A stretch of DNA of 64,000 nucleotides from an uncultured Candidatus Saccharibacteria bacterium. Lineage in GTDB: Bacteria; Patescibacteriota; Doudnabacteria; UBA920. The translations under genes and the position numbers were made by a program. The stretch is taken from positions 64,393 to 128,392 of the forward strand of contig CAYZEI010000001.1 of NCBI GenBank assembly GCA_964477745.1, written 5' to 3'. Numbering within the stretch: the first letter of the stretch is position 1; each line of letters begins with the position of its first letter. This document shows positions 7,094 through 53,412 of this stretch, piece by piece. Below the pieces are notes generated by a model. It was given only the letters and a program-made list of their open reading frames with translations, searched no databases and was not told the origin of the DNA.

Positions 7094-7413
7094 AAGTTTT
7101 ATTTAACTGATTAATTGCCTAAAGCCACTATTAATAGTGACTAATATAAGCAATACTAATGTCTGTTAGACAATTTTATCACAATTATGTTGTAACTTAC
7201 AAGCATTTTAGTGTATAACCTGTTGATGATTGGTGCTAATTAAAAATGCTTATAATTAAAAGCGAAATTGCCCTTAAGAAGGGTTTACAAACCACAAAAA
7301 ATTTGGTAAAATTATAAATCTTGTCGAATGTTCGGACGGCAAGAAATGTCCTGGGTAGCTTTTCTCAATTGAGCCCAGGAATCCTCTATTCCGAACCAGG
7401 AGGAGGGCTGGAG

Positions 7414-7965
7414 ATGATCCATCCCCAGAAGAGTGGTTACCGTGCGGTAGCCATATTCACTCTCGTCTTGGTTGCCGTGGTGCTTTGCGCCCCGGTCGCC
7501 ACAGGCGCGCCAATCAATCTCTATAACACGTTGGACAACACAGCCACCGGGCTGATTTGCACGACGTGTACACCAATCGCTACCAGTGGCCAAGTGGTCT
7601 CTGGATACGCGATCGGGTCTTCGGACCCGAACATCAACAACACAGGAGCGTGGCTGTTCGCGTTGATCTTCCCTGACCTTGGAGGAACTGACGCGGGTCT
7701 TGCAGACCACGTTAAATTGCTAACCGGGGCATCCATGCCAATGCTTGCCCAAGTGTTGATTGATCCCCACACCACCTTCACAGGAACCTCTTCCGGCGGC
7801 ACCTACACCGTTGGAGACGCCTCCTACGTTGTCCACATTGTCAGCGGTGGTAATGGAGGTGGCGGTGGCGGCAACGATCCGGGCGGACAGGTGCCGGAAC
7901 CTGCCAGCGTCGGACTCGTTGGCGCCGGAATCGGCGCAATCTTGTACTCCCGCTTCCGGCGGTAG
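7414..7965 (+). CDS. Secreted protein with PEP-CTERM sorting signal (VPEPASVGLVGAGIGAILYSRFRR)
   Basis: AGGAGGG RBS 7 nt upstream of ATG, signal peptide, Gly-rich linker, canonical PEP + TM + RR C-terminus; locally GC-rich. Confidence 0.6.
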   Translation: MIHPQKSGYRAVAIFTLVLVAVVLCAPVATGAPINLYNTLDNTATGLICTTCTPIATSGQVVSGYAIGSSDPNINNTGAWLFALIFPDLGGTDAGLADHVKLLTGASMPMLAQVLIDPHTTFTGTSSGGTYTVGDASYVVHIVSGGNGGGGGGNDPGGQVPEPASVGLVGAGIGAILYSRFRR

Positions 7966-19463: not shown

Positions 19464-21410
19464 ATGAATTCCGACACTAAACTAAAATCTAAAGCTTCCG
19501 AGTTCCCAAAGCTACCTGGTGTGTACCAGTTTATAAGCGCTAGCGGGGAAGTTCTTTACGTGGGTAAAGCCAAAAATTTGCGCGTGCGAGTTAAGCAATA
19601 TTTTGGTCACGATGATAGCCGTCCCCAAATCCCTTTTTTAATGGCCGAAGCAACCAACGTTACCTATACGGTAGTAGACAGCGAATTGGAAAGCGCATTT
19701 TTAGAAAACACGTTAATTAAACAACATCATCCGCGGTTTAATATTGACCTAAAAGACGACAAAAATTACGCCTTTATAAAAATTGACTTCTCAACCGAAA
19801 TCCCCCAAATCACTTACACTCGTTCTGTCGACCCGCCTATAAGCTATAAGCTAGCTCCTAAAAGCTTGTTCTTCGGTCCCTACACCGCAGCCTATAAAAT
19901 TCGCAACACCTTAAACTTGGTGCGAAAAATTTTTTCCTTCTGTGCCAATACCAAAGTCGGTAGTCGGCCTTGTTTTTATTACCACATGCATCGCTGTCCC
20001 GGTGTTTGCGTGGGGAAAATTAGTTTGACGGAGTACCGGGAGCACCTGGAAAAAATTGCCAAATTCTTACAGGGCGACACCGCCGGCGTATATAAAAAAA
20101 TCAAGGCGGAAATGCAAAAATCCGCGAATCATAAACGTTTTGAGACCGCAGCTCGTTTGCGTGACCAACTTAAAGCCTTGGAACTACTAAATGAAAAACA
20201 AAATGTCATTTTAGCGAAAAAAGTTGACTGGGATATTATTTCACTGTCGACAGAAAGCGGCTTTTCTTGCGTAAATTTATTTAAGATCCGGGGGGGGAAA
20301 TTATTTGATAAAGAAAATTTTATCTACGAACTTCCAACTTCAGAACAAGAAACAATTAGCACTACAGAAATCTACGGGGGAAAAATTATGCAACGGTTTG
20401 TTGAACAGTATTATCAAGAAACCAGCTTTGCCCCAAAAATTATTTATACCCAAATAAAACTATTAAACGAAAAAATTCTGGAACAAATAATTAAATCCCG
20501 ATTTCATAAAACAATAAAAGTTATTTTGCCACAAAAAGGCAAGTCCCTAAGTTTAATAAAACTGGGGGGTATGAATGCAAACGAATTTTTAAAAACCTGG
20601 CTAACGGACAAGGCAGGTAATTTAGATAAAATTAACCAAAGTCTAGAACAATTAAAGCAGACTTTAAATTTACCTAGCCTGCCAAACCGCATTGAGTGTT
20701 ATGATATTTCCAATATTCAGGGGACCAACCCGGTCGGTAGTATGGTGGTATTTTCCGCCAAAGGCGGATCCGCCTCCGGCGGAAAAAATTTTGGATTTCA
20801 AAAATCTGAATACCGGAAATTTAAAATTCAGGGGAAAAATACGCCCGATGATTTTGCCATGATGAAAGAGATGCTGTCTCGTCGACTCGCGAGAAGCATC
20901 GGCGACAAAACCAAAGTCCAAATTTCCCGCCCGCAGTCGCCTGAAGCTCCAGCTGATGGCGGGCAGGCCAATAACAAAACCTGGCCCATTCCTGACCTCA
21001 TAGTCATCGATGGCGGAAAAGGTCAACTCAATGCTGCCCTGTCAGTCCTTCGCGCTATCCGCTATCCGTTATCCGCTATTCCAGTTATTGGACTCGCGAA
21101 GAGGCTTGAAGAAATCTTTTTACCTAACCAAGAGGAGCCAATTATTTTGGGTCACGACCAACCGGCACTCCAGTTGCTCCAACGCCTGCGTGATGAAACC
21201 CATCGTTTTGGCATTACCTTCCACCGCCAGCTCAGAAGTAAACAAGCTGTTAAATCTGCACTCGACGATATCCCCGGAGTGGGCCCAAAAACAAAAAAAC
21301 TCTTAAAAACCAAATTTGGCACAGTGGCACAAATAAAAAAAACCCCTCTTGCCGACCTGTCGGCAATTGTGGGCGAAAAATTGGCGAAAATTATTCAACA
21401 AGGACTATAA
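19464..21410 (+). CDS. uvrC: Excinuclease ABC subunit C (carries two in-frame palindromic insertions)
   Basis: GIY-YIG N-terminus (VYQFISASGEVLYVGKAKNLRVRV), UvrBC-interaction and RNaseH-like/HhH C-terminus. Confidence 0.95.
   Translation: MNSDTKLKSKASEFPKLPGVYQFISASGEVLYVGKAKNLRVRVKQYFGHDDSRPQIPFLMAEATNVTYTVVDSELESAFLENTLIKQHHPRFNIDLKDDKNYAFIKIDFSTEIPQITYTRSVDPPISYKLAPKSLFFGPYTAAYKIRNTLNLVRKIFSFCANTKVGSRPCFYYHMHRCPGVCVGKISLTEYREHLEKIAKFLQGDTAGVYKKIKAEMQKSANHKRFETAARLRDQLKALELLNEKQNVILAKKVDWDIISLSTESGFSCVNLFKIRGGKLFDKENFIYELPTSEQETISTTEIYGGKIMQRFVEQYYQETSFAPKIIYTQIKLLNEKILEQIIKSRFHKTIKVILPQKGKSLSLIKLGGMNANEFLKTWLTDKAGNLDKINQSLEQLKQTLNLPSLPNRIECYDISNIQGTNPVGSMVVFSAKGGSASGGKNFGFQKSEYRKFKIQGKNTPDDFAMMKEMLSRRLARSIGDKTKVQISRPQSPEAPADGGQANNKTWPIPDLIVIDGGKGQLNAALSVLRAIRYPLSAIPVIGLAKRLEEIFLPNQEEPIILGHDQPALQLLQRLRDETHRFGITFHRQLRSKQAVKSALDDIPGVGPKTKKLLKTKFGTVAQIKKTPLADLSAIVGEKLAKIIQQGL
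20757..20792. repeat. In-frame palindromic element type B, copy 1 (GCCAAAGGCGGATCCGCCTCCGGCGGAAAAAAT) inside uvrC
   Basis: Near-identical to 62755..62794 in tsaD; encodes AKGGSASGGKN insertion. Confidence 0.7.
20926..20968. repeat. In-frame palindromic element type A, copy 1 inside uvrC
   Basis: 41/43 identical to 49364..49406 (which lies in a minus-strand gene); encodes SRPQSPEAPADGGQA. Confidence 0.7.
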
Positions 21411-26832: not shown

Positions 26833-27015
26833 ATGTTTCAGTGGGTTCTGGGTTCGGGATTACTAACGCGCTCAACTATTATTCCGGCGAATGGAACCAC
26901 AGATTCCACCACCGCCAAACCGGCATCAGCCTCACCAGCTCCACAACCAACTCTCACGGCTGAAGAAATCATCACTCTGACAGCCGATGAAATTACCCCC
27001 TCTGAACATTTCTAA
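26833..27015 (+). CDS. Small 60-aa protein/peptide of unknown function
   Basis: Strong promoter and AAGGAGG-N7-ATG, hairpin terminator downstream at ~27040..27075. Confidence 0.35.
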   Translation: MFQWVLGSGLLTRSTIIPANGTTDSTTAKPASASPAPQPTLTAEEIITLTADEITPSEHF

Positions 27016-28172: not shown

Positions 28173-28195
28173 GTGTGACTAAAAGGAGGCAATCA

Positions 28196-28507
28196 GTGCT
28201 TGCGACTAGTGTGGTTCTTATTGAATGCGAGGAGGAGGCATATGCCAGATTCCTTCATGACCAATGGCCAAGCCTACAATCCTGGTGTGGACTCTTTCCC
28301 ACCCATGGACCAGTAGAGGTCCATCGTAAGAATGTGGTCATCGCGTTGACTTGGGGTGGCCAATTCAAGCCAGAAGAAACCCCTACCTACGTCAGGGGGG
28401 TCAAAGTTTTCGCCCACTCGGGCGACTTCCATATTGCCAGGCAGGAACTCTTGGCACATAACAACACTCAGGTTCATCCTGAGACCCTCTTCGGGGGAAA
28501 AAGTTGA
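28196..28507 (+). CDS. Hypothetical 103-aa protein in GC-rich mini-island
   Basis: AAGGAGG RBS 6 nt upstream of GTG start; hairpin terminator 28538..28575. Confidence 0.35.
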   Translation: MLATSVVLIECEEEAYARFLHDQWPSLQSWCGLFPTHGPVEVHRKNVVIALTWGGQFKPEETPTYVRGVKVFAHSGDFHIARQELLAHNNTQVHPETLFGGKS

Positions 28508-30041: not shown

Positions 30042-30409
30042 AAAGTTTCGTCTACAGTTTTTAATGCATCTAAAAATTCTTGTGGGGCACCGGTAATAAT
30101 TTCATTATTTTGATTTGGTCTAAAAGCAATTTTGCCATCAGCCATTTGAATAGCACCAGACTTTGCATACCCTGCAGTTACCTGCCCTTGTTGTAATTTT
30201 GCTTGTCTAACATCAATTCCCTTTACGCCTAAATATTGCTTTAATTCCAAAAGCTCCCTAGGGCTTAATGAACTAATCTGTCGTTCTTGCAAGCCAACTT
30301 CCGGACCAACAAGATGCTCGTATTCTATTCCACGATCAGCTTTAAAAGGAGGCTCACCCCCTGCAATTTTTGCTATATATGGACTTGTGCCTTTAGGTCT
30401 TTCAGTCAT
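30038..30409 (-). CDS. Hypothetical 123-aa protein (downstream member of a two-gene pair)
   Basis: ORF with 4-nt overlap to PGM start; no recognised domain. Confidence 0.4.
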   Translation of the reverse strand: MTERPKGTSPYIAKIAGGEPPFKADRGIEYEHLVGPEVGLQERQISSLSPRELLELKQYLGVKGIDVRQAKLQQGQVTAGYAKSGAIQMADGKIAFRPNQNNEIITGAPQEFLDALKTVDETL

Positions 30410-30801: not shown

Positions 30802-30954
30802 AAATTTATTCTACTTCCTCAACCCCTTTAAGTCAATTTTCGAGTTTGTCTAATTTTATATGTAATTACGTATAAAATTGGGCAAAAGAAAAAGCGACAG
30901 GGACGTATGGAGAATACGTCAAACCTGTCGCCTATGGCGGATGAACATGAACGG

Positions 30955-31158
30955 TCAGTAGGTGCGCGCGAAGAGGAACGAGCGCATTTCACGATCGGCC
31001 TGACGATCATGCAACTCTCTCTCTTTTTTGGAAACAAGCGCCTCGGCTGCGCGCCCACGGGGAGCACCTTTCATTTTACGCCTTCGGGCGGCTTTTGGCC
31101 CACCTTTTACCATTCCGCCTGCCGCGGTTCTAATTCGTGGCTGACCATGACCACTCAT
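30955..31158 (-). CDS. Small highly basic protein (67 aa, R/K/G/P-rich) in GC-rich island
   Basis: AAGGAGTG RBS 6 nt from ATG; hairpin terminator 30889..30935. Confidence 0.3.
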   Translation of the reverse strand: MSGHGQPRIRTAAGGMVKGGPKAARRRKMKGAPRGRAAEALVSKKERELHDRQADREMRSFLFARTY

Positions 31159-31319: not shown

Positions 31320-31775
31320 CTACCGATTCAAGCCGGCAAGCTCTGGCAGTGTGCCGTAGTAGCCGACATACCGTTTTTGGCCGGCGACATTTGCTTCAAA
31401 CAATAGAGCCAGCACCCCTACCTTTCCGGAGGGTCTATCGGTCTCCAACTTCCGACAGTCCCAGACCCGAAACTCCGAGTCGCTTGATTCAACGCTGAGA
31501 CGACGCCCCAAACGGCGCCATTCGGCTGCCAGTTTGTCGTACGACATTTTGTGCTTGCGCGATTGCCCTGCCCAGCAGGACTTTTCCTGGGCGTAAAAAC
31601 CATACACCCCGGCTTCGGTTAGAAGTTCGAGGATATAAACCAGAAGCACCTGGTCTCGACACAACCGGACGTGGCACAAATCTACACGTCCTCCTGACGG
31701 ATCTTTCAGAAATAGAGCCACTGGCTCACCTCCTACAAGTCTGTATTTTTCATAAGGCGAAATTAATCGCCCCAA
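31320..31775 (-). CDS. Hypothetical 151-aa protein in GC-rich island (TTG start)
   Basis: Open frame with GC-rich codon usage distinct from host; terminator hairpin 31262..31297. Confidence 0.3.
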   Translation of the reverse strand: MGRLISPYEKYRLVGGEPVALFLKDPSGGRVDLCHVRLCRDQVLLVYILELLTEAGVYGFYAQEKSCWAGQSRKHKMSYDKLAAEWRRLGRRLSVESSDSEFRVWDCRKLETDRPSGKVGVLALLFEANVAGQKRYVGYYGTLPELAGLNR

Positions 31776-33766: not shown

Positions 33767-33985
33767 TTAGGCTCCTTTGACGAAGCCGATGATGATCAAC
33801 CACGCCGCTAGGGCATTGCACCCCCAGAACAGGGGTTTTGAACAGGTTTTCCGAAACCCATCCCACAGTGTCTGATACATTCCGGCGATTGAGCCAGTGT
33901 TGTTCAACGACTGGCTAAGAATTGGGATTCCCCACAAGACTGTGGAGAACAGGATGACACAAAGACCTAAAAAGATGAGAATCAT
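33767..33985 (-). CDS. Small two-TM membrane protein in GC-rich mini-island
   Basis: AAGGAGG RBS before MILIFLG...; hairpin terminator downstream. Confidence 0.35.
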   Translation of the reverse strand: MILIFLGLCVILFSTVLWGIPILSQSLNNTGSIAGMYQTLWDGFRKTCSKPLFWGCNALAAWLIIIGFVKGA

Positions 33986-36549: not shown

Positions 36550-36951
36550 ATGAGATCGCGACTGATTTTTCTACTGCACTGTTGCTGTTTATTCTCCTTG
36601 GTTGCGAGTTCGCTCGCTTCCGAGTTCATTAAACACACCCACCCCAAGTTCTTTGCCGGAACTTTTATTTACGGCCTCGGACTTGCCTCGGTCCTAACTT
36701 TAGCATCGTGGATGGTGTTCGGCGGTTGCCCGCTTACGTGGCTAGAAAACCACTACCGCAGACTGGAAGGCCGGCCAACGTACCACGGATCGTGTATGGT
36801 CCACTACTACCCCACACGGTGGTTAGGCCAGCCCAACTCGCGCTACATCCACTGCGCACTTTTTGCGATCATGGCTTACCCCGTGGCCGTCCGCTACAGC
36901 GAGCAAATCAAAAGCCTCTGCCTTTCGGCAGTCCGCTTTCTCCTCGAGTGA
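36550..36951 (+). CDS. Membrane protein (CPLTWLE motif, DUF2784-like) in GC-rich mini-island
   Basis: AAGGAGGG RBS, TM helices, terminator 36948..36983. Confidence 0.4.
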   Translation: MRSRLIFLLHCCCLFSLVASSLASEFIKHTHPKFFAGTFIYGLGLASVLTLASWMVFGGCPLTWLENHYRRLEGRPTYHGSCMVHYYPTRWLGQPNSRYIHCALFAIMAYPVAVRYSEQIKSLCLSAVRFLLE

Positions 36952-37867: not shown

Positions 37868-40261
37868 CTATTGTAATCTCACATCTCCATAAGTCATGGG
37901 AGACAAACGAGGTAAGGCTAAATCGTACAAATTAGCCGAGACAATAAAGCCGGCTTGGCCAGCGTTGTTTAAGAAGGTGTTCCAATCCGGAACCGGAATT
38001 AAACCTTGCTCGTGCACCATGTAAACGGCTACACCGCTCTTTACCCAAGCGCCCCATGGGTGACTGGAATAGTTTGTGCGAATAGCATAACCGGAATCAA
38101 CTAAACCGGAATTACCCACTTCGGTCACATTAGAAAATTTATAACCTAACCCGGTAAACACACCGGCGGAGACAAATCCTGTTTTGGTATTTTTATAAAC
38201 AATATATACCGTACCATTTTCGGAAATTAATTGACCGTTGGCATAAGTGCTGGCTCCCAACACGCCGGGATACGTAAGTCCCCCGCCGTTAGAATAACCA
38301 CTCACTGTCACATATACGCTAACACAGGCACTGTAACCACCGCTCTGGCAAATAGACAAGGTGGTACTTCCATATTGCCGACCATAAATGCTTAAAGCGT
38401 TGCCGGAAAGGGAGGCCGTCGCTACACCGGAATTGCTGTTACTGGAAATATAATAACTTCCGCTTCCGTATACTGTAACATTTACATTTTGATTAATACC
38501 AACTGTGACGCTGGGCTGCGACACGGACAAATTGCCACCGGAAGAACCCCCGCCAACTGTAACATACAGCGTACTGCAATAGCTCAAAGAAGAATGACAC
38601 ACGCTAATGCTGGTGGAACCATTTTGGTAAGCATACAAGTTCAGCACTGTGCCGGAAATGCTGGCACTGGCTATATTGGAATTGCTGTTACTGGAAATAT
38701 AATAAGAGGTATTGTTGTAATACGGATAAACAGCTGCATATGCACTGCTGTTAATGGATACTGCTAAACTTTGACCAACATATAAATTCGGGTTGGCCGG
38801 GCTAAACCACAAGTTAGTATTAGAGCCAAGTACGGAACCGGTGACGGTAACATACAAAGTGGCACAGCTACTAACATTATTCTGACACACGCTAATGCTG
38901 GTGGAACCGCTGGCTAAACCGTTTAAATAAAGTGAGCTACCGGAAATACTGGCTGTGGCCACATTTGGGTTGCCGTTAGAAGAAATATAATAGCTATTAT
39001 TATAGTTATAATTATTGTTATTATAAATCGTTACTGTCTGACTTTGTCCCGCGGTTAAACTAACATTGGAAGTGGTAAAATAAATATTCCCGTAACCGCC
39101 GGTTCCGCTTCCGGAAACCGTGACATAAATATATGCGCACTGCGTGGACGAGCTAATCGCACAAACATAAATAGTGCTACTGCCGGCGCTGTTTGCGTAA
39201 AGATTTATTTTATTTACATCCAAGGAAGAAGTTACAACCGACGGACTGCTGTTGGAAGAAATATAAACCGCCGGGGCATTGTACGCGGTAACGGTTAAAC
39301 TTTGACCGACAGTCATCGAGACGCTGGTTTGGGACAAAGACAAACTACCGTAACTGCTACCGGAAACTGTAACATACAAAGTGGCACAATTGGAGTAACT
39401 GCTTTGACAAACACTAATACTGGTGCTTCCACTGACCAATCCGCTCACATACAAAGAACTGCCCGACACATAAGCCGAAGCAACGCTAGAGTTAGAATTA
39501 CTGGAAATATAATAACTCCCGGAGGAATATCCGCTGTTGTTATAAATAGAGACATTAGAATTTTGTCCCGCGGTAAGCGTTAACGAAGATGGAGAAAAAT
39601 AAATATTTCCGCCATAATTACTACCTCCGCTAACCGTTACATACAAATAGGAGCAAGTAGACCCGGTTGAACAAACGGAAATTGTTGCGCTTCCGGAAGC
39701 AAGACCATAAACATTTATTGTGCTACCGGAAATGCTGGCGCTGGCTACACTGGAGTTACTATTGGAAGCAATATAATAACTACCGCTATAAATATAGCTA
39801 CCAATGGAAACGTAGGAAGAAGCACTTTGCCCCACACTTACAGATAAACTGGATGGGCTAATAGTTAGCCCGCCAACACTACATCCGTAGTATCCGCATC
39901 CACCTGTTCCGCTTGAACCCGGATAAATTGAAATGGTAGACGATTGCTGACCGCCAACTGTGACATACAGCTGAACTTGGCTGGAACTATAATCCGAAGG
40001 CATGCTCACAACTTGAGTAAAATATCCACTACCATCGGTTTGGCCAATATTGTTGACCGTGGTCCACAGGGTGCTGGATTGTCGGTAAGACAAATTTACT
40101 TGGCTAAAAGTTGCCGCATTGGAAACGGTTATTTGGACGTTGTCATTTCCACCCTGATAGTTAGCGGAAAGAGTCGGGGAATAGGCTAATGCTGGTCCGG
40201 CAATACTTAACAAACCCGCAACAAATCCCCCTAAAATAAGGCTTTTTATGTATTTAGTCAT
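37868..40261 (-). CDS. Large Ser/Thr/Gly-rich cell-surface protein with ~6 Ig-like (Big_2-like) tandem repeats
   Basis: Signal peptide MTKYIKSLILGGFVAGLLSIAGPALA; repeated YISSNSNSSVASA...SISVC...CATLYVTVSG units. Confidence 0.7.
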   Translation of the reverse strand: MTKYIKSLILGGFVAGLLSIAGPALAYSPTLSANYQGGNDNVQITVSNAATFSQVNLSYRQSSTLWTTVNNIGQTDGSGYFTQVVSMPSDYSSSQVQLYVTVGGQQSSTISIYPGSSGTGGCGYYGCSVGGLTISPSSLSVSVGQSASSYVSIGSYIYSGSYYIASNSNSSVASASISGSTINVYGLASGSATISVCSTGSTCSYLYVTVSGGSNYGGNIYFSPSSLTLTAGQNSNVSIYNNSGYSSGSYYISSNSNSSVASAYVSGSSLYVSGLVSGSTSISVCQSSYSNCATLYVTVSGSSYGSLSLSQTSVSMTVGQSLTVTAYNAPAVYISSNSSPSVVTSSLDVNKINLYANSAGSSTIYVCAISSSTQCAYIYVTVSGSGTGGYGNIYFTTSNVSLTAGQSQTVTIYNNNNYNYNNSYYISSNGNPNVATASISGSSLYLNGLASGSTSISVCQNNVSSCATLYVTVTGSVLGSNTNLWFSPANPNLYVGQSLAVSINSSAYAAVYPYYNNTSYYISSNSNSNIASASISGTVLNLYAYQNGSTSISVCHSSLSYCSTLYVTVGGGSSGGNLSVSQPSVTVGINQNVNVTVYGSGSYYISSNSNSGVATASLSGNALSIYGRQYGSTTLSICQSGGYSACVSVYVTVSGYSNGGGLTYPGVLGASTYANGQLISENGTVYIVYKNTKTGFVSAGVFTGLGYKFSNVTEVGNSGLVDSGYAIRTNYSSHPWGAWVKSGVAVYMVHEQGLIPVPDWNTFLNNAGQAGFIVSANLYDLALPRLSPMTYGDVRLQ

Positions 40262-40289
40262 ATATTTATATGGTTAATTCTTGACTTTA

Positions 40290-40860
40290 TATTATACTCT
40301 TTTGCCCCTCAAGCGTCAATGCAATTTTAAAGGCCCCCGGAAACTTCTGACGAAGCGTGGAGGCCTTTGCTTGAACATCTTTTAACCACCGATGGTGGCA
40401 AGCTGTTCAAACCCGGTAACCGTAGCCGGGGCGGAGATTAGGAGATCACCTCCTTTCGGAAATGATTACAACCATCGTGCGTGGTCATGGTAATACTCCT
40501 TTTCCTGTATGGGTTGATACCTGCCGGAGCTAGCCTTAAGCTCAGGCAAAAATAGAATGGCCTAAGAAATGCCCCTGGGGTCAATGACCCCGTGTCGTGC
40601 CGCAAAAGATCTTGCGGGCTTTCCGGTTTTTGCCGTGGGTTTGTGACTTGAGCCTTTTGGCCTTTCAGTCCGAGGAAATCTCGGATTGGCCTGAAGCCGG
40701 TCAATCACCGGACCAGATTCGGGGGGAGTCGGCATTATGCGAAAATGCGGATCGCGCCGGTTGTCTCGCCGGATCACGGACAGGAATGAGCCCATATTTA
40801 ACCTCCTATGGTTTGTGGGCAAAAAAATGCTCCTTTGGCTTTTTAGGGCTTAAGGAGTTC
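40290..40860. other. GC-rich non-coding block; candidate structured RNA (unclassified), contains 16S-3'-end-like segment
   Basis: GC ~55% vs ~40% flanks, many short hairpins, no convincing ORF; GGTAACCGTAG...GATCACCTCCTTTC at 40420..40466. Confidence 0.3.
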
Positions 40861-40976
40861 GAACAACTAATATTAATACAAAGCTCTCTTGGAATTTATC
40901 TACAAAATCTGCAGATTGTGGAAACGCAACATTCATAAGTAGTATATTAGCCTTATGCTGGTATTATAGCACATTG

Positions 40977-41507
40977 CTAACTTTTCAAAAAAACCTTGGC
41001 AGACAGCACGGCTCTGGAGCCTTCCCCTACCGAGGTTACTGAATTACCCGGCGCCCCGGACAAAACAGACCCACCCGCAAACAGTCCGGGAACATTGGTG
41101 GCCATTTGTGCGTCCACTTTAATTTTATTTTTAAAATCTTTAAATGCGGTTAAATCAAAAGCTGTATTACCTTCATGAGTTACGGAATTCTCACCGCTAC
41201 AAATAATAACACTTTTAGCATAAAAAGTTTGTCCGCTTTTTGTTTCCACAGAAAAACTAATCACGTTTTTTTCCAAAGAAGTTACTTCCTGTTTTAAGTA
41301 TAATTCAAAAAATTGAGCAGAGTTTTCTGTTACTTTAACTAATTCTTTTTGCATTTTTTTAGCATCGAATAAATTTAACTCTGTCGCTCCAACTTTTAGA
41401 ACGGAAAATTCCTTTGCCACCAGCAAAGTTTTTAGTTTTAATTTTACGGCGGTCAGCGCCGCGGACATTCCGGACATCCCCGCACCGATGATTATAATGT
41501 CATGCAT
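40977..41507 (-). CDS. Thioredoxin-reductase-like FAD-domain protein lacking the NADPH/redox-disulfide domain
   Basis: IIIIGAGMSGMSAA Rossmann and VPGLFAGG motifs alignable to both ends of trxB (45644..46576); 176 aa. Confidence 0.5.
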   Translation of the reverse strand: MHDIIIIGAGMSGMSAALTAVKLKLKTLLVAKEFSVLKVGATELNLFDAKKMQKELVKVTENSAQFFELYLKQEVTSLEKNVISFSVETKSGQTFYAKSVIICSGENSVTHEGNTAFDLTAFKDFKNKIKVDAQMATNVPGLFAGGSVLSGAPGNSVTSVGEGSRAVLSAKVFLKS

Positions 41508-45643: not shown

Positions 45644-46576
45644 CTAAATGCTTTCTGCTAAATACTTCTCCACATCCAATGCGGCCATACAGCCCATACC
45701 GGCTGCGCTTATGGCTTGGCGGTAACGCGGATCATTTACGTCCCCGGCAACAAACACGCCGGCAATATTGGTGTGGGTGTTGTTTTGTACTTTTATATAA
45801 CCCTTAGCGTCCGTCTCCACGCCGGCCGCGGCAAAAATTTTCGTTGCCGGGGTGTGGCCAATGGCCAAAAATATTCCTTGTAAAGACAAAACAGATTCCT
45901 CGCCTGACTGATTATCTTTAATCTTTAATCCTTCAACTGTGTTCTCGCCCACCACATCCAGCACTGCCACATTGGTCACAAAAGAAATTTTTGGGTTATC
46001 CTGCGCCCGCTTTAACATTATTTTTGAAGCTTTAAATTCCGCCCGACGATGGACAATATAAACTTTATTGGCAAAGCGGGTTAAAAAGTTGGCTTCTTCC
46101 ATAGCTGAGTCTCCCCCGCCAATTACGGCCACATCTTTTCCTTTAAAGAAAAACCCGTCGCAAGTGGCGCAAGCCGAAACTCCCTTACCCCTAAGGCGCT
46201 GTTCTCCGGGCAGGCCAAGCCAATTAGCTTCCGCGCCTGTGGCAATTATTACACTCTTGGCCAAATATTCACCTTTACCGGTTTTTACTTTAAACGGTTG
46301 CGCAGAAAAATCCACGCTCTCCACGTTCTCGGGCAAGATTGTGGTTTCAAACCGCTCTGCTTGCTTGGTCATATTATCCATTAGTTCCGGGCCCATAACA
46401 CCGTTAACAAACCCCGGAAAATTTTCCACTTCCGTAGTATCCATTAATTGTCCACCCGGCTTTAGTCCGGCTAAAACTAGTGGTTTTAATTCCGCTCGCC
46501 CGGCATAAATAGCCGCAGTTAACCCCGCAGGGCCGGAACCGATTATGATTACATTTTTGATTTCTTGATTGGTCAT
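45644..46576 (-). CDS. trxB: Thioredoxin reductase
   Basis: GSGPAG FAD motif, CATC redox centre, GGGDSA NADPH motif. Confidence 0.9.
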   Translation of the reverse strand: MTNQEIKNVIIIGSGPAGLTAAIYAGRAELKPLVLAGLKPGGQLMDTTEVENFPGFVNGVMGPELMDNMTKQAERFETTILPENVESVDFSAQPFKVKTGKGEYLAKSVIIATGAEANWLGLPGEQRLRGKGVSACATCDGFFFKGKDVAVIGGGDSAMEEANFLTRFANKVYIVHRRAEFKASKIMLKRAQDNPKISFVTNVAVLDVVGENTVEGLKIKDNQSGEESVLSLQGIFLAIGHTPATKIFAAAGVETDAKGYIKVQNNTHTNIAGVFVAGDVNDPRYRQAISAAGMGCMAALDVEKYLAESI

Positions 46577-48615: not shown

Positions 48616-49542
48616 TTACTCTATCCCCAACTCCTGTAATTCCTCCAGCACCTGCCTGGTTGCTGCCATCCAATTAGGATTTTTAGGCTGAACATAAACA
48701 CCATTCATTTGTTCCAGTGTCCAATTACTGTAGCGTCTTTCCAATAACCGGTTAAAATCTTTTACCCAATCCCCTAAGGTGGCATATTTATGCCAGTATG
48801 GATGCCCGGGTTTAACCCCAATGTTGCTACAATTATTATCTACACAATTTCGGCCAAAAGTACTTTCCGCAAACGAAATGGCCAAAATTAATTTCCAATG
48901 TTTTTGTTCGGCAATAATGTCCGAGGCTTCCACAAACGGCGTTTTTTTAGCGGTTAAATAGGCGCGTAATTTTTCTTTCCGCAAAGCCATTCTTTCGGCT
49001 TCTTTTAACTGTTTGTTTTGTTCGGCAATGGAATTTAAATAATTTTCCAACTGACCAATGGTCATATTATACAACACGTCATTGGAGACATTGCTAATCG
49101 GGCCTAAGTTGCCAGTGTTTTGCATTGGGATTGAACCGGCCTGGGTTTGCTCAAAATCTTGGGCTGATGTTTTCTGAGTATTTAATGCTGTCCACGCGCC
49201 CCCGCCAAAGGCCACAATTAGCGCCACTATAATGGCGTACACTGGTACAGCTTTTTTTAAACTATTAAATTTTTTAAACTCAATTATAACCAGAGCTAGG
49301 TTATTTTTAAAAGCATAAAAGATGCCTGTAATTTTTTGTTGAGCCCTTTGCTGGATGCTATATGCCCCGCCTGCAGTCGCCTGAGGCTCCAGCTGATGGC
49401 GGGCAGGTATATGCTTGTTCCCAAGTTTCGGTGGCACTAAAAATTCGGTATAAAAAACTTCCACAGTAGGCTGTATTTTAACTTTAACAATGGGCTTTAA
49501 AGTCTTTGGCTTGGTTTTATTTATCCCGTCTAAGTTTCTCAT
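48616..49542 (-). CDS. Membrane-anchored putative peptidoglycan glucosaminidase-like protein; carries in-frame palindromic element
   Basis: C-terminal ...LAISFAESTFGRN...NIGVKPG resembles glucosaminidase domain; element A copy at 49364..49406. Confidence 0.4.
   Translation of the reverse strand: MRNLDGINKTKPKTLKPIVKVKIQPTVEVFYTEFLVPPKLGNKHIPARHQLEPQATAGGAYSIQQRAQQKITGIFYAFKNNLALVIIEFKKFNSLKKAVPVYAIIVALIVAFGGGAWTALNTQKTSAQDFEQTQAGSIPMQNTGNLGPISNVSNDVLYNMTIGQLENYLNSIAEQNKQLKEAERMALRKEKLRAYLTAKKTPFVEASDIIAEQKHWKLILAISFAESTFGRNCVDNNCSNIGVKPGHPYWHKYATLGDWVKDFNRLLERRYSNWTLEQMNGVYVQPKNPNWMAATRQVLEELQELGIE
49364..49406. repeat. In-frame palindromic element type A, copy 2
   Basis: 41/43 identity with 20926..20968; read on opposite strand yet remains in-frame. 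Confidence 0.7.
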
Positions 49543-52914: not shown

Positions 52915-52990
52915 ACCGGCGACTGGACAATTCGCGCGAATTGTCCAGTCGCCAAAATACGTAAGTGATGGGATATGTCCCCATTCACAT
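52915..52990 (+). repeat. Direct repeat copy 1 containing 36-nt perfect palindrome GGCGACTGGACAATTCGCGCGAATTGTCCAGTCGCC (52918..52953)
   Basis: Seen directly; partner at 53330..53412. Confidence 0.8.
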
Positions 52991-53329: not shown

Positions 53330-53412
53330 ATCAGCGCTGGACAATTCGCGCGAATTGTCCAGTCGCCAAAATACGTAATTAAATATGAGGTTAATGGGCC
53401 ATGTCCCCATTT
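53330..53412 (+). repeat. Direct repeat copy 2 with 34-nt near-perfect palindrome (53334..53367)
   Basis: Shares palindrome + AAAATACGTAA...ATGTCCCCATT with copy 1. Confidence 0.8.

What the first reader, a model, noticed from the sequence alone, without database searches (positions are those of the whole stretch)
40290..40860. ~570-nt GC-rich non-coding block with a 16S-rRNA-3'-terminus-like sequence
No credible ORF sits in this block, which is ~55% GC and densely hairpinned. It lies upstream (minus sense) of the giant surface-protein gene. At 40420..40466 the plus strand reads GGTAACCGTAGCCGGGGCGGAGATTAGGAGATCACCTCCTTTC, which resembles the 16S helix-45/anti-SD terminus (GGTAACCGTA...GGATCACCTCCTTTC). 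On the minus strand this gives a perfect extended SD (GAAAGGAGGTGATC) with no start codon behind it. One alternative is a 77-aa R/P-rich ORF (40562..40795, minus strand) with a perfect AGGAGG-N6-ATG. I could not match the region to tmRNA or RNase P RNA by eye, and I did not recognise SRP RNA.
Basis: seen in the sequence. Interest (0 to 1): 0.55.

Follow-up and report, generated by a model that had tools for sequence, protein, structure and literature searches.

The report
Small basic-protein gene with ribosome-binding tail
The "non-coding" GC-rich block is a small minus-strand gene unit found only in one group of candidate-phyla-radiation (CPR) bacteria. It encodes a very basic, disordered 77-residue protein, and its folded 3' untranslated region carries a near-perfect complement of the 16S rRNA tail. 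That complement is why the opposite strand looks like the end of a 16S gene.

Summary
The block is real. It is 51% GC against 41% for the window, folds far better than shuffles (z = -5.2 and -4.4), and contains the quoted 16S-like string at 40415-40457.

It is not a known RNA: Rfam gives no credible hit, and ARAGORN finds no tRNA or tmRNA there. The claim of "no credible ORF" is wrong.

All conserved signals are on the minus strand:
- an extended -10 promoter
- a 28-codon leader ORF that ends in a hairpin+U7 terminator
- AGGAGG-N6-ATG
- the 77-codon ORF
- a 240-nt hairpin-rich 3' UTR
- a second terminator

The ORF carries a clear coding signature. In its first 20 codons, 16 of 24 variable columns are third positions, and dN/dS is 0.3-0.5. 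Its homologues are all 71-77 aa with pI 11.4-12, but the body of the sequence is freely replaced.

The excess RNA structure sits in the 3' UTR only. The 16S-like string is the reverse complement of GAAAGGAGGUGAUC. This is the strongest potential anti-SD-binding site in the 64 kb (-25.5 kcal/mol) and is retained in five lineages of an otherwise SD-poor genome.

The unit occurs only in a narrow clade related to Ca. Doudnabacteria. Outgroups have a 117-nt spacer instead. Function is unknown. It is ordinary in kind, with one intriguing RNA element.

The parts
40963..40971 (-). Extended -10 promoter TGCTATAAT, starting 6 nt after the stop codon of the upstream 176-aa gene
   Evidence: T.TG.TATAAT is invariant in the six sequences aligned (for the alignments). 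The seventh lineage, L014, reads TGCTATAAT directly. Coordinates. No good -35 element at proper spacing. Activity not tested.
40850..40936 (-). sORF1: a 28-codon leader ORF (MNVAFPQSADFVDKFQESFVLILVVRTP*) with no SD, as is typical for this genome
   Evidence: The ORF is open in all 7 lineages (25-30 codons). There is a frame-preserving 3-nt indel. It ends Pro-stop in 6 of 7 lineages, and the stop lies in or next to the following hairpin in all 7. The codon-position signal is weak (variable columns 17/18/23), so translation is inferred, not shown.
40821..40857 (-). Hairpin CUCCUU...AAGGAG followed by U7: an intrinsic terminator/attenuator between sORF1 and ORF77
   Evidence: A hairpin of -8.9 to -12.5 kcal/mol followed by U5-U8 is present in all 7 lineages. 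The stem covaries: CUCCUU/AAGGAG, CCCCA/UGGGG in L009, ACCCC/GGGGU in L014.
40790..40820 (-). Translation-initiation region of ORF77: stem GCCCA/UGGGC enclosing the SD AGGAGG (40802-40807) and touching the AUG
   Evidence: Consensus fold, with one compensatory pair in L004 (ACCCA/UGGGU). The SD:anti-SD duplex is -11.4 kcal/mol here and -10.3 to -13.5 in homologues. Core gene starts have a median of -2.8 (a canonical 16S tail is assumed).
40562..40795 (-). ORF77: 77-aa Arg/Pro-rich protein (pI 11.9) with an almost invariant N-terminus MGSFLSV(I/V)RRDNRRxPHxR
   Evidence: In the first 20 codons, variable columns by codon position are 5/3/16. Twelve codons vary only synonymously, including CGA/AGA/CGT for Arg. 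Over the whole ORF, 17 codons vary only synonymously in frame, against 3 and 6 in the shifted frames. dN/dS is 0.3-0.5, and the one indel between window and L004 is 12 nt. Homologues are 71-77 aa, pI 11.4-12.0, net charge +7 to +15. AlphaFold gives pTM 0.11 and almost all coil (one 4-residue helix, 64-67). No Pfam, NCBIfam or PDB match.
40323..40561 (-). Structured 3' UTR: hairpin A 40523-40547, single-stranded GGCAGGUAUCAAC 40513-40525, an SD3/anti-SD-like stem enclosing sORF3, hairpin D 40412-40430, hairpin E 40373-40408, terminator 40323-40368
   Evidence: Folding z is -4.3 in the window, -5.8 in L008, -3.3 in L014 and -2.3 in L010. In the consensus fold, 17 of 62 pairs keep pairing through changes on both sides in at least one lineage, although the overall covariation term is slightly unfavourable. 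Conserved sequence islands are listed.
40438..40488 (-). sORF3: a 16-codon mini-ORF (MTTHDGCNHFRKEVIS*) preceded by AAAGGAG-N7-ATG (SD at 40496-40502)
   Evidence: SD, ATG and stop are retained in window, L004, L008, L010 and L014 (16-17 codons). There is no codon-position signal (8/10/9), and the amino-acid changes are radical. It is probably translated, but the peptide is probably not what is selected.
40444..40457 (-). GAAAGGAGGUGAUC: a 14-nt perfect complement of the canonical 16S 3' tail.
   Evidence: Duplex with GGAUCACCUCCUUUC is -25.5 kcal/mol, the strongest of 25,590 windows on both strands (next best outside the element -19.6). L004 gives -25.5, L008 and L010 -21.4, L014 -27.6. All three A-to-G changes between lineages keep pairing as G.U. 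The stop codon lies exactly 8 nt after GG(A/G)GG in all lineages. No start codon follows at initiation distance.
40412..40430 (-). Hairpin D, CCCGG-CUACGGUUA-CCGGG. Its loop is the complement of the 16S-like GGTAACCGTAG
   Evidence: The stem covaries (C-G to U-A at the base). The loop C(A/U)ACGG(U/C)U is kept in five lineages, but with a 1-nt insertion and 1 mismatch relative to the window.
40291..40319 (-). TTGACG-17-TATAAT promoter of the surface-protein gene. It is not part of the unit and marks its downstream boundary
   Evidence: Promoter scan gives 11 of 12 matches. The promoter and the 5' UTR AUAAAGUCA(A)GAAUUAAC are also conserved in outgroups that lack the block.

Best explanation
The block is a self-contained minus-strand transcription unit of about 640 nt. 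It was gained by one narrow CPR clade (labelled Ca. Doudnabacteria / Saccharibacteria in the MAG records), between a mini thioredoxin-reductase-like gene and a surface-protein gene.

Proposed order of events:
1. Transcription starts at a conserved extended -10 promoter.
2. It runs through a 28-codon leader ORF whose last codons form the 5' arm of a hairpin+U7 terminator.
3. Only read-through transcripts carry the 77-codon ORF. That ORF is translated from a strong SD, in a genome whose ordinary genes have none.
4. The product is a small, disordered, polycationic protein. It has a fixed 19-residue N-terminus and a fast-evolving basic tail, and most likely binds nucleic acid or the ribosome.
5. 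The mRNA ends in a 240-nt hairpin-rich 3' UTR. This UTR holds a second SD-led mini-ORF and, 8 nt before that ORF's stop codon, a 14-15-nt complement of the 16S 3' tail, which can anchor a 30S or terminating ribosome.

The GC-richness comes from Arg/Pro/Gly codons plus UTR hairpins. The '16S 3' terminus' is the antisense image of the SD-like element and of a hairpin loop.

Shown: strand, coding status of ORF77, the conserved hairpin+U-run, localisation of structure to the UTR, the strength and conservation of the SD-like element, and clade-restricted presence.

Inferred: promoter activity, leader-peptide-coupled attenuation, 16S-tail binding, and the function of the protein.
For: Strand and layout: promoter, terminators, SDs and ORFs are conserved in 5-7 lineages on the minus strand.

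Coding status of ORF77:
- Third-position and synonymous excess.
- The gene is called in independent assemblies.
- The plus-strand ORF 40597-40938 has its second codon position where ORF77 has its third, so it cannot be the conserved frame (from the coordinates).

Protein character: length 71-77 aa and pI 11.4-12.0 are kept although the body is unalignable between window and L010, where flanking genes are about 80-90% identical in most 60-nt windows. AlphaFold predicts disorder.

Attenuator: hairpin plus U-run in all 7 lineages, with compensatory stem changes.

Localisation of structure: z-scores.

SD-poor background: 4 of 48 large ORFs have any GGAG/GAGG/AGGA within 22 nt upstream, and many have TATAAT 3-10 nt before the ATG. 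Core gene starts have a median duplex energy of -2.8 kcal/mol, against -11.4 for the ORF77 SD and -25.5 for the UTR element.

Gain: outgroups L015 and L017/L018 have only a ~117-nt terminator+promoter spacer at the same place.

Rarity: only 3 clusters match among 1.84 billion representative proteins, and only 2 loci each in the genome and metagenome scans.
Against: - There are no expression data. Promoter use, read-through and translation are all inferred.
- sORF1 and sORF3 lack a codon-position signal, so they may be RNA features that merely stay open.
- No alternative (antiterminator) structure was identified for the attenuator. The hairpin may simply terminate the upstream gene as well.
- Outside the conserved N- and C-terminal blocks, the ORF77 body is only weakly constrained. 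The protein itself might matter less than the act of translating it.
- The 16S tail of this organism is not available, so the pairing energies assume the canonical tail.
- L009 appears to have a weaker version of the SD-like element (AAGGUG) just where its contig ends.
- Only about 6 independent lineages exist, so covariation statistics are weak. The covariation term of the consensus folds is near zero or slightly unfavourable.
Confidence: 0.6

Rival explanations
1. The 3' 240 nt is the functional core. It would be an RNA that binds the 3' tail of 16S rRNA, and possibly other terminal 16S segments. It could act in cis as a STAB-SD-like ribosome anchor or termination/tethering site. It could also act as a 3'-UTR-derived sRNA that titrates free anti-SD in an SD-poor organism. 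On this view ORF77 is a co-expressed partner or merely the vehicle.
For: - This is the only part of the block with excess structure, and that holds in four lineages.
- The 14-15-nt anti-SD complement is the strongest site in the 64 kb. It is kept at -21 to -28 kcal/mol through A-to-G changes that preserve pairing, while the mini-ORF peptide changes radically.
- Two further conserved islands are complementary to terminal 16S segments. Hairpin D's loop matches the helix-45 5' strand. GGCAGGUAUCAAC matches UUGAU-CCUGCC of the SSU 5' end with one bulge (the 16S sequences are from my own knowledge).
- An AU-rich run before hairpin A could be a processing site (inference).
- Precedents exist: STAB-SD binds 30S without initiating translation (PMC4113751), and extended SDs are read by specialised ribosomes in SD-blind Bacteroidia (PMC9976891).
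Against: - No promoter for the UTR alone was found.
- The cis partner (AUCUCCUAAUCUCC) offers an intramolecular explanation for the GGAGG conservation in four of five lineages.
- The hairpin D loop match to 16S is exact only in the window.
- The match to the bacterial 16S 5' end is weak, about 10 bp with two bulges.
- The organism's own 16S is unknown.
- STAB-SD elements act at 5' ends, not 3' ends.
Confidence: 0.2
2. ORF77 is a regulatory ORF rather than a protein gene. Only its first ~19 codons (a nascent-peptide signal) and its length matter. Its translation, or stalling during it, would control the folding or fate of the downstream UTR.
For: - Only the N-terminal 19 residues are conserved in all lineages.
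- The body is replaced in L009, L010 and L014, yet ORF length stays at 71-77 codons.
- The stop codon stays about 15-25 nt before hairpin A (my reading of the sequences).
Against: - The basic, proline-rich composition and high pI are conserved even where the sequence is not. This points to a property of the protein itself.
- The C-terminal 19 residues are under strong purifying selection in three lineages.
- No regulated downstream gene is evident. A terminator follows, and the surface-protein gene has its own promoter.
Confidence: 0.1
3. The whole ~630-nt block is one large structured non-coding RNA on either strand, and the ORF is incidental.
For: - Whole-block folding z is -5.2 and -4.4.
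- GC enrichment in an AT-rich genome is typical of structured RNAs.
- Some compensatory pairs fall inside the ORF, for example the CCGAG/CUCGG hairpin.
Against: - The ORF has a coding signature.
- The ORF alone does not fold unusually well: z = -0.9, and +0.45 in L014.
- The ORF body is unalignable between genomes whose flanking genes are mostly about 80-90% identical.
- There is no Rfam hit.
Confidence: 0.05
4. The plus strand carries a relic or mimic of a 16S rRNA 3' end, either a pseudogene fragment or a decoy for a 16S-tail-binding factor.
For: - An 11-mer and a 14-mer identical to 16S are present, in the right order and at nearly the right spacing.
- This is the best local alignment in the window.
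Against: - No SSU covariance-model hit even at E <= 10 on 246 nt.
- The helix-45 pairing partner is absent.
- No plus-strand promoter was found, and a terminator-like hairpin lies just upstream on that strand.
- In relatives the core CCUCC becomes CCCCC. That breaks an anti-SD mimic but keeps pairing in the minus sense.
- The alignment score is only about 3 SD above the null maximum.
Confidence: 0.03

Closest known systems
Leader-peptide transcription attenuators (pyrBI, trp and tnaC types; from my own knowledge)
   Same: A short ORF sits directly upstream of a structural gene and ends in or at the stem of a hairpin+U-run, so a ribosome at its end would prevent hairpin formation. The Pro-stop ending recalls TnaC.
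   Different: No antiterminator alternative or diagnostic regulatory codons were found. The leader has no SD, and the peptide shows no clear codon-level selection. Regulation is untested.
rpsU (bS21) autoregulation through an exceptionally strong SD in SD-blind Bacteroidia (PMC9976891, PMC7797042, PMC13000453)
   Same: The genome is SD-poor. A small, very basic protein gene carries one of the rare strong SDs (-11 to -13.5 kcal/mol, against the < -13 kcal/mol reported for rpsU).
   Different: ORF77 has no detectable similarity to bS21 or any ribosomal protein family. The window holds several other SD-led orphan ORFs. The strongest anti-SD complement is in the 3' UTR, not the initiation region. 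The phylum is different.
STAB-SD mRNA stabiliser of Bacillus thuringiensis cry3A (PMC4113751)
   Same: An SD-like sequence pairs with the 16S 3' end but does not start translation. The window element includes GAAAGGAGG, which I recall as the STAB-SD sequence (not checked in the paper read).
   Different: STAB-SD lies near the 5' end and blocks 5'-3' decay of the coding part. Here the element lies downstream of the main ORF, inside a mini-ORF, 8 nt before its stop.
16S rRNA 3' terminus (helix 45 + anti-SD)
   Same: The plus strand shares GGTAACCGTAG and GATCACCTCCTTTC with it, in the same order.
   Different: There is no helix-45 3' strand or GGAA loop. The SSU model does not recognise it. It lies on the strand opposite all expression signals. 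The identity decays in relatives.
Rfam RF01867 (Caulobacter sRNA CC2171)
   Same: Its consensus starts with CGAAAGGAGGUGAUCCA, the same 16S-tail complement.
   Different: The score is 10.1 bits against a gathering score of 75 (E = 5), and only the motif and a terminal hairpin align. It is not a member.

Membership tests
Any Rfam family (including SSU rRNA, tmRNA, RNase P, SRP, 6S, riboswitches) | Covariance-model score at or above the family's gathering threshold | tested here: not met
   At gathering thresholds only two tRNAs are found, elsewhere in the window. Permissive searches of 40200-41050 and 40320-40565 give only chance-level hits with E of 2-7. ARAGORN finds no tRNA or tmRNA in the block.
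16S rRNA 3'-terminal fragment | Helix 45 (both strands plus GGAA loop) followed by the anti-SD tail, recognisable by the SSU model and conserved as such | tested here: not met
   Only the 5' strand and the tail are matched. There is no SSU hit. In relatives the motif has an insertion and mismatch, and CCUCC becomes CCCCC.
Protein-coding gene (ORF77) | Open frame kept across lineages, indels in multiples of three, excess of third-position and synonymous change, dN/dS < 1, and a start signal | tested here: met
   In the N-terminal 20 codons, variable columns by codon position are 5/3/16. Seventeen codons vary only synonymously in frame, against 3 and 6 in the shifted frames. The indel is 12 nt. 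AGGAGG-N6-ATG is conserved.
Intrinsic terminator / attenuator | Stable hairpin directly followed by a U-run, conserved with covariation | tested here: met
   Hairpins of -8.9 to -12.5 kcal/mol followed by U5-U8 occur in 7 lineages, with three different stem sequences.
Leader-peptide attenuation | A translated leader ORF whose ribosome position decides between terminator and antiterminator folds | tested here: inconclusive
   The leader ORF is open in 7 of 7 lineages and ends at the hairpin. However, it has no codon-level signal, and no antiterminator structure was found. Translation and read-through cannot be tested with these tools.
bS21-type SD-dependent autoregulation | SD-poor genome, a gene with an exceptionally strong SD, and a product that is ribosomal protein bS21 sequestering the anti-SD | tested here: not met
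   The SD-poor genome is met. The strong SD is partly met (-11.4 here, -13.5 in homologues). Identity with bS21 is not met: no Pfam, NCBIfam or PDB match even at E <= 10. Anti-SD sequestration cannot be tested with these tools.
STAB-SD-type stabiliser | A non-initiating SD-like element near the 5' end of the stabilised RNA that binds 30S | tested here: inconclusive
   The strong, non-initiating complement is met (no start codon at initiation spacing). The 5' location is not met. 30S binding cannot be tested with these tools.
RiPP / bacteriocin precursor | Conserved leader plus variable core, with adjacent modifying or export genes | tested here: not met
   The conserved-N-terminus, variable-tail pattern is present. 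Neighbouring genes are GDH, VanW, mini-TrxR, a Big_2 protein and an exonuclease. No recognised maturation or transport genes are among them.

The most novel reading that the evidence does not exclude
The unit could be a ribosome-specialisation module of an SD-poor CPR lineage. Its 3' UTR would be an RNA that pairs with the 16S 3' tail, and perhaps also with the helix-45 5' strand and the 16S 5' end, using three conserved single-stranded islands. The co-expressed polycationic 77-aa protein would be a lineage-specific ribosome-associated factor whose synthesis depends on free anti-SD, analogous to bS21/rpsU in Bacteroidia. Together they would sense or set the fraction of ribosomes able to read the genome's small set of GC-rich, SD-led orphan genes.
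Probability: 0.1. Interest if true: 0.75.

Novelty: new member of a known kind. Interest (0 to 1): 0.35.

Why it matters
As it stands, this corrects an apparent novel ncRNA into an orphan small-protein gene with ordinary bacterial regulatory parts. That is useful for annotation: the ORF is real, and the "16S-like" string is an antisense SD.

Three points go beyond the ordinary:
- It is a clean example of a recently gained, independently transcribed small gene in streamlined CPR genomes. Outgroups show the empty site.
- It adds a family of disordered polycationic proteins to the unexplored CPR small proteome.
- The genome appears to run mostly without SD sequences, yet it conserves a 14-15-nt complement of the 16S tail in a 3' UTR, alongside a handful of SD-led orphan genes. 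If that element really engages ribosomes, it would bear on how SD-independent lineages use their retained anti-SD.

Tried and rejected
- **Rfam** at gathering and permissive thresholds on the window, the block, the UTR and 12 related loci: nothing credible.
- **ARAGORN:** no tRNA or tmRNA in the block.
- **Repeats or extra copies** of the block in the window or loci: none. There is one 26-nt chance-level match at 30382.
- **Plus-strand 113-codon ORF** (40597-40938): no Pfam hit, and its second codon position coincides with the variable third position of ORF77. Rejected.
- **ORF77 against Pfam, NCBIfam and PDB** at E <= 10: only noise, such as an eS24 tail at E = 0.5.
- **AlphaFold:** disordered, so no fold search was run.
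- **Viral contigs:** no relatives.
- **Frameshift extension of sORF3** (prfB-like SD + stop): the +1 frames are short and not conserved (my reading of the sequences). Rejected.
- **Own promoter for the UTR:** none convincing.
- **Strand test by G.U asymmetry:** uninformative, because each strand's own predicted structure loses pairs when mirrored. Consensus energy favours the minus strand, -51.3 against -36.3.
- **RiPP precursor, type I toxin (no hydrophobic segment) and 16S pseudogene:** rejected as set out in the membership tests and rivals.
- **The organism's own 16S:** could not be obtained.
- **Long-range pairing** between UTR island GGCAGG and ORF codons 4-6 (CCUGUCC): one compensatory change in L004, but not supported in L014 or L009. 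Left as a lead.
Full report
**1. What is in the sequence.** The finding lies in a 715-nt gap (40262-40976) between two minus-strand genes. One is a 797-aa Big_2 / pilus-N-domain surface protein (37868-40261). The other is a 176-aa Pyr_redox_2 protein that lacks the NADPH domain (40977-41507). GC content is 51% for 40290-40860, against 41% for the window, with a 55% peak at 40600-40799. The block folds much better than dinucleotide shuffles on both strands (z = -5.24 and -4.44). The quoted string GGTAACCGTAG-N18-GATCACCTCCTTTC sits at 40415-40457.

That is the best score in the window. The null maxima for 64-kb simulated sequences are 14.3 +/- 1.2 and 13.8 +/- 0.9. The resemblance is therefore real but only about 3 SD beyond chance.

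**2. Known RNA families.** Rfam gives nothing at gathering thresholds except two tRNAs elsewhere in the window. Permissive searches of the block and of the 3' 246 nt give only chance-level hits, and no SSU rRNA hit. One such hit, RF01867 (10 bits against a gathering score of 75), matches only because its consensus begins with the same CGAAAGGAGGUGAUCC motif. ARAGORN finds no tRNA or tmRNA in the block. The block has no other copy in the window.

**3. Relatives.** The 77-codon ORF (40562-40795, minus) is called as a gene in public assemblies.
- A word-indexed protein search found three relatives.
- An exhaustive profile search of 1.84 billion representatives found three clusters at E <= 0.001.
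- Pattern scans of the genome and metagenome collections found two loci each.
- Viral contigs gave none.

With look-ups, this gives about six independent lineages besides the window's own species: L004, L005/6/8, L007, L009, L010-12 and L013/14. All come from CPR bacteria whose MAG records are labelled Ca. Saccharibacteria or Ca. Doudnabacteria. All have the same gene order: GDH, mini-TrxR, block, Big_2 protein. More distant genomes with the same neighbours (mini-TrxR 45-48% identical; L015, L017/18) have only about 117 nt at this place: a terminator plus the surface-gene promoter. The ~640-nt unit is therefore a gain of one narrow clade.

**4. Strand and layout.** Every conserved signal reads on the minus strand (alignments; L014):
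- an invariant extended -10 element, TGnTATAAT (40963-40971);
- a 25-30-codon ORF (sORF1, 40850-40936);
- a hairpin of -9 to -12.5 kcal/mol followed by U5-U8 (40821-40857), with three different but complementary stem sequences among lineages;
- AGGAGG-N6-ATG (the SD at 40802-40807);
- ORF77;
- a ~240-nt region ending in a strong terminator (40323-40368, -19 to -25 kcal/mol);
- the surface gene's own TTGACG-17-TATAAT promoter.

**5. ORF77 is coding.** In the first 20 codons, variable alignment columns fall 5/3/16 on codon positions 1/2/3. Twelve codons vary only synonymously, including CGA/AGA/CGT for one arginine. Over the whole ORF, 17 codons vary only synonymously in frame, against 3 and 6 in the two shifted frames. 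Pairwise dN/dS is mostly 0.3-0.5 (range 0.10-0.63), and the one indel between window and L004 is 12 nt. The plus-strand 113-codon ORF has its second codon position where ORF77 has its third, so it cannot be the conserved frame.

The protein family has an almost invariant N-terminus, MGSFLSV(I/V)RRDNRRxPHxR. L014 keeps DNxRDPHxR. The rest is conserved in three lineages (KPARSFAARHGVIDPRGIS) and replaced by unrelated sequence in L009, L010 and L014. Even so, all members are 71-77 aa, pI 11.4-12.0, and net +7 to +15. Between the window and L010, most 60-nt windows of the flanking genes are 80-98% identical (a few fall to 58-68%), the leader is 92-97% identical, and the ORF body is only 30-48% identical. 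There is no Pfam, NCBIfam or PDB relative. AlphaFold predicts almost all coil, with one 4-residue helix (pTM 0.11). This is a disordered polycation and most plausibly a nucleic-acid or ribosome binder (inference).

**6. Where the structure is.** Computed separately, the ORF (z = -0.9; homologues +0.45 to -2.8) and the leader (+0.15) are unremarkable. The 3' region is not: -4.3 in the window, -5.8 in L008, -3.3 in L014 and -2.3 in L010. Three control coding segments give -0.3 to -1.5. The consensus fold of the 3' region is a string of hairpins, and 17 of 62 pairs keep pairing through changes on both sides in at least one lineage. The net covariation term is about zero.

The conserved islands of the 3' region are:
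- U-run + hairpin A + GGCAGGUAUCAAC;
- AAAGG(A/G)G-N7-9-AUG, which opens a 16-17-codon mini-ORF (sORF3, 40438-40488);
- GAAAGG(A/G)GGUGAU;
- hairpin D with the loop C(A/U)ACGG(U/C)U.

sORF3's SD pairs with a CUCC repeat just after its stop codon. sORF3 has no codon-level signal (8/10/9), and its amino-acid changes are radical.

**7. The 16S-like string explained.** On the transcribed strand it reads GAAAGGAGGUGAUC (40444-40457) plus the loop and 3' arm of hairpin D. Against an assumed canonical tail GGAUCACCUCCUUUC, the first element forms a -25.5 kcal/mol duplex. That is the strongest of 25,590 windows on both strands; the next best outside the element is -19.6. Homologues give -25.5, -21.4, -21.4 and -27.6. 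The three A-to-G differences among lineages keep pairing as G.U in the minus sense but would be C-A mismatches in the plus sense. In addition, CCUCC becomes CCCCC on the plus strand. Both points argue against a 16S mimic and for an anti-SD-binding (or CUCC-binding) element. The stop codon of sORF3 lies exactly 8 nt after GG(A/G)GG in all lineages, and no start codon follows. The exact 11-mer GGTAACCGTAG exists only in the window. Relatives have a 1-nt insertion and one mismatch.

**8. Genomic background.** Only 4 of 48 ORFs of at least 150 aa have any GGAG/GAGG/AGGA within 22 nt upstream. Many have TATAAT 3-10 nt before the ATG. Duplex energies at 43 core gene starts have a median of -2.8 and a minimum of -8.0 kcal/mol. 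Strong SDs occur in front of a handful of GC-richer orphan ORFs. ORF77 (-11.4; -13.5 in homologues) belongs to that class.

The closest precedent for a rare strong SD on a small basic protein gene in an SD-blind lineage is rpsU/bS21 in Bacteroidia (PMC9976891, PMC7797042). The closest precedent for a non-initiating SD that binds 30S is STAB-SD (PMC4113751). Neither membership is met (see the membership tests).

**9. Mechanism proposed.**
- Shown: strand, coding status, hairpin+U-run, structure localisation, strength and conservation of the SD-like element, and clade-restricted gain.
- Inferred: transcription from the extended -10 promoter. A ribosome finishing sORF1 (Pro-stop inside the hairpin's 5' arm) modulates termination, so that ORF77 is made only on read-through. 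ORF77 initiates by SD in a mostly SD-independent cell. The UTR element tethers a 30S or terminating ribosome, or pairs in cis with the CUCC repeat.

Confidence in the overall description is 0.6. Coding status of ORF77 is about 0.85, the attenuator role about 0.5, and 16S-tail binding about 0.3.

**10. Verdict.** The locus is a new, undescribed member of familiar kinds: a small orphan protein gene, a terminator/attenuator and a structured UTR. One element deserves an experiment. Interest is 0.35. The most novel reading not excluded is a 16S-tail-binding RNA together with an SD-dependent ribosome-associated protein in an SD-poor CPR lineage (probability about 0.1).

Noticed in passing
whole window (gene starts); e.g. 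37781, 42418, 50309, 59712: The genome is SD-poor. Only 4 of 48 ORFs of at least 150 aa have an SD-like tetramer upstream, and many have TATAAT 3-10 nt before the ATG, which suggests leaderless or near-leaderless mRNAs. The median anti-SD duplex energy at core starts is -2.8 kcal/mol.
   Followed up: partly
26833-27015(+), 28175-28507(+), 30955-31158(-), 31320-31775(-), 33767-33985(-), 36550-36951(+), 7321-7965(+): A set of GC-richer ORFs is preceded by strong SDs (AAGGAGG / AGGAGG), unlike the core genes. Five have no Pfam hit at all. The exceptions are a below-threshold DUF2784 match (36550-36951) and a PEP-CTERM tail (7321-7965). One of them (30955-31158, minus) is another small Arg/Lys-rich basic protein, with a terminator at about 30890-30935. 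They may form a special SD-dependent class or be acquired genes.
   Followed up: partly
40977-41507 (-): A mini thioredoxin-reductase-like protein of 176 aa has the FAD-binding N- and C-terminal parts of Pyr_redox_2 but no NADPH domain. A full-length 310-aa paralogue lies at 45644-46576. The mini form is a narrow family (163-189 aa, 11 clusters) and is always next to the Big_2 surface-protein gene.
   Followed up: partly
2956, 3291, 36385, 37826, 41510, 42448, 45628, 47452: An AT-rich repeat family of about 38-54 nt (CTATCTACTAAATACTATATGCTA...) recurs in both orientations at gene boundaries. Examples lie directly upstream of the starts at 41507 and 42418. It may be a shared promoter, UTR or terminator element.
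   Followed up: no
52918-52948 / 53337-53367: A perfect 31-nt inverted repeat (GGCGACTGGACAATTCGCGCGAATTGTCCAG) flanks a 388-nt segment. The arms are themselves palindromic.
   Followed up: no
20926-20967 and 49366-49407: A 42-nt GC-rich direct repeat (95% identical; CCCGCC.GCAGTCGCCTGA.GCTCCAGCTGATGGCGGGCAGG) occurs in two distant genes or regions.
   Followed up: no
40513-40525 (-) and 40412-40430 (-): Two further conserved islands of the 3' UTR are complementary to terminal 16S segments. GGCAGGUAUCAAC is complementary to the SSU 5'-end core UUGAU-CCUGCC with one bulge; the match is better for the archaeal/eukaryal form than for the bacterial form. Hairpin D's loop is complementary to the helix-45 5' strand. 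Together with the anti-SD complement, the UTR looks antisense to both ends of 16S. This cannot be judged without the organism's own 16S.
   Followed up: partly
40778-40786 (-) with 40520-40525 (-): There may be long-range pairing between ORF77 codons 4-6 (CCUGUCC) and the UTR island GGCAGG. L004 changes both sides (CUG to CUA, and GGCAGG to GGUAGG). L014 and L009 do not support it.
   Followed up: partly
L006, L007, L008, L009 (contig ends): Several independent assemblies break inside or just after this block. The cause could be low coverage or strain-level variability of the ORF body, and was not determined.
   Followed up: no
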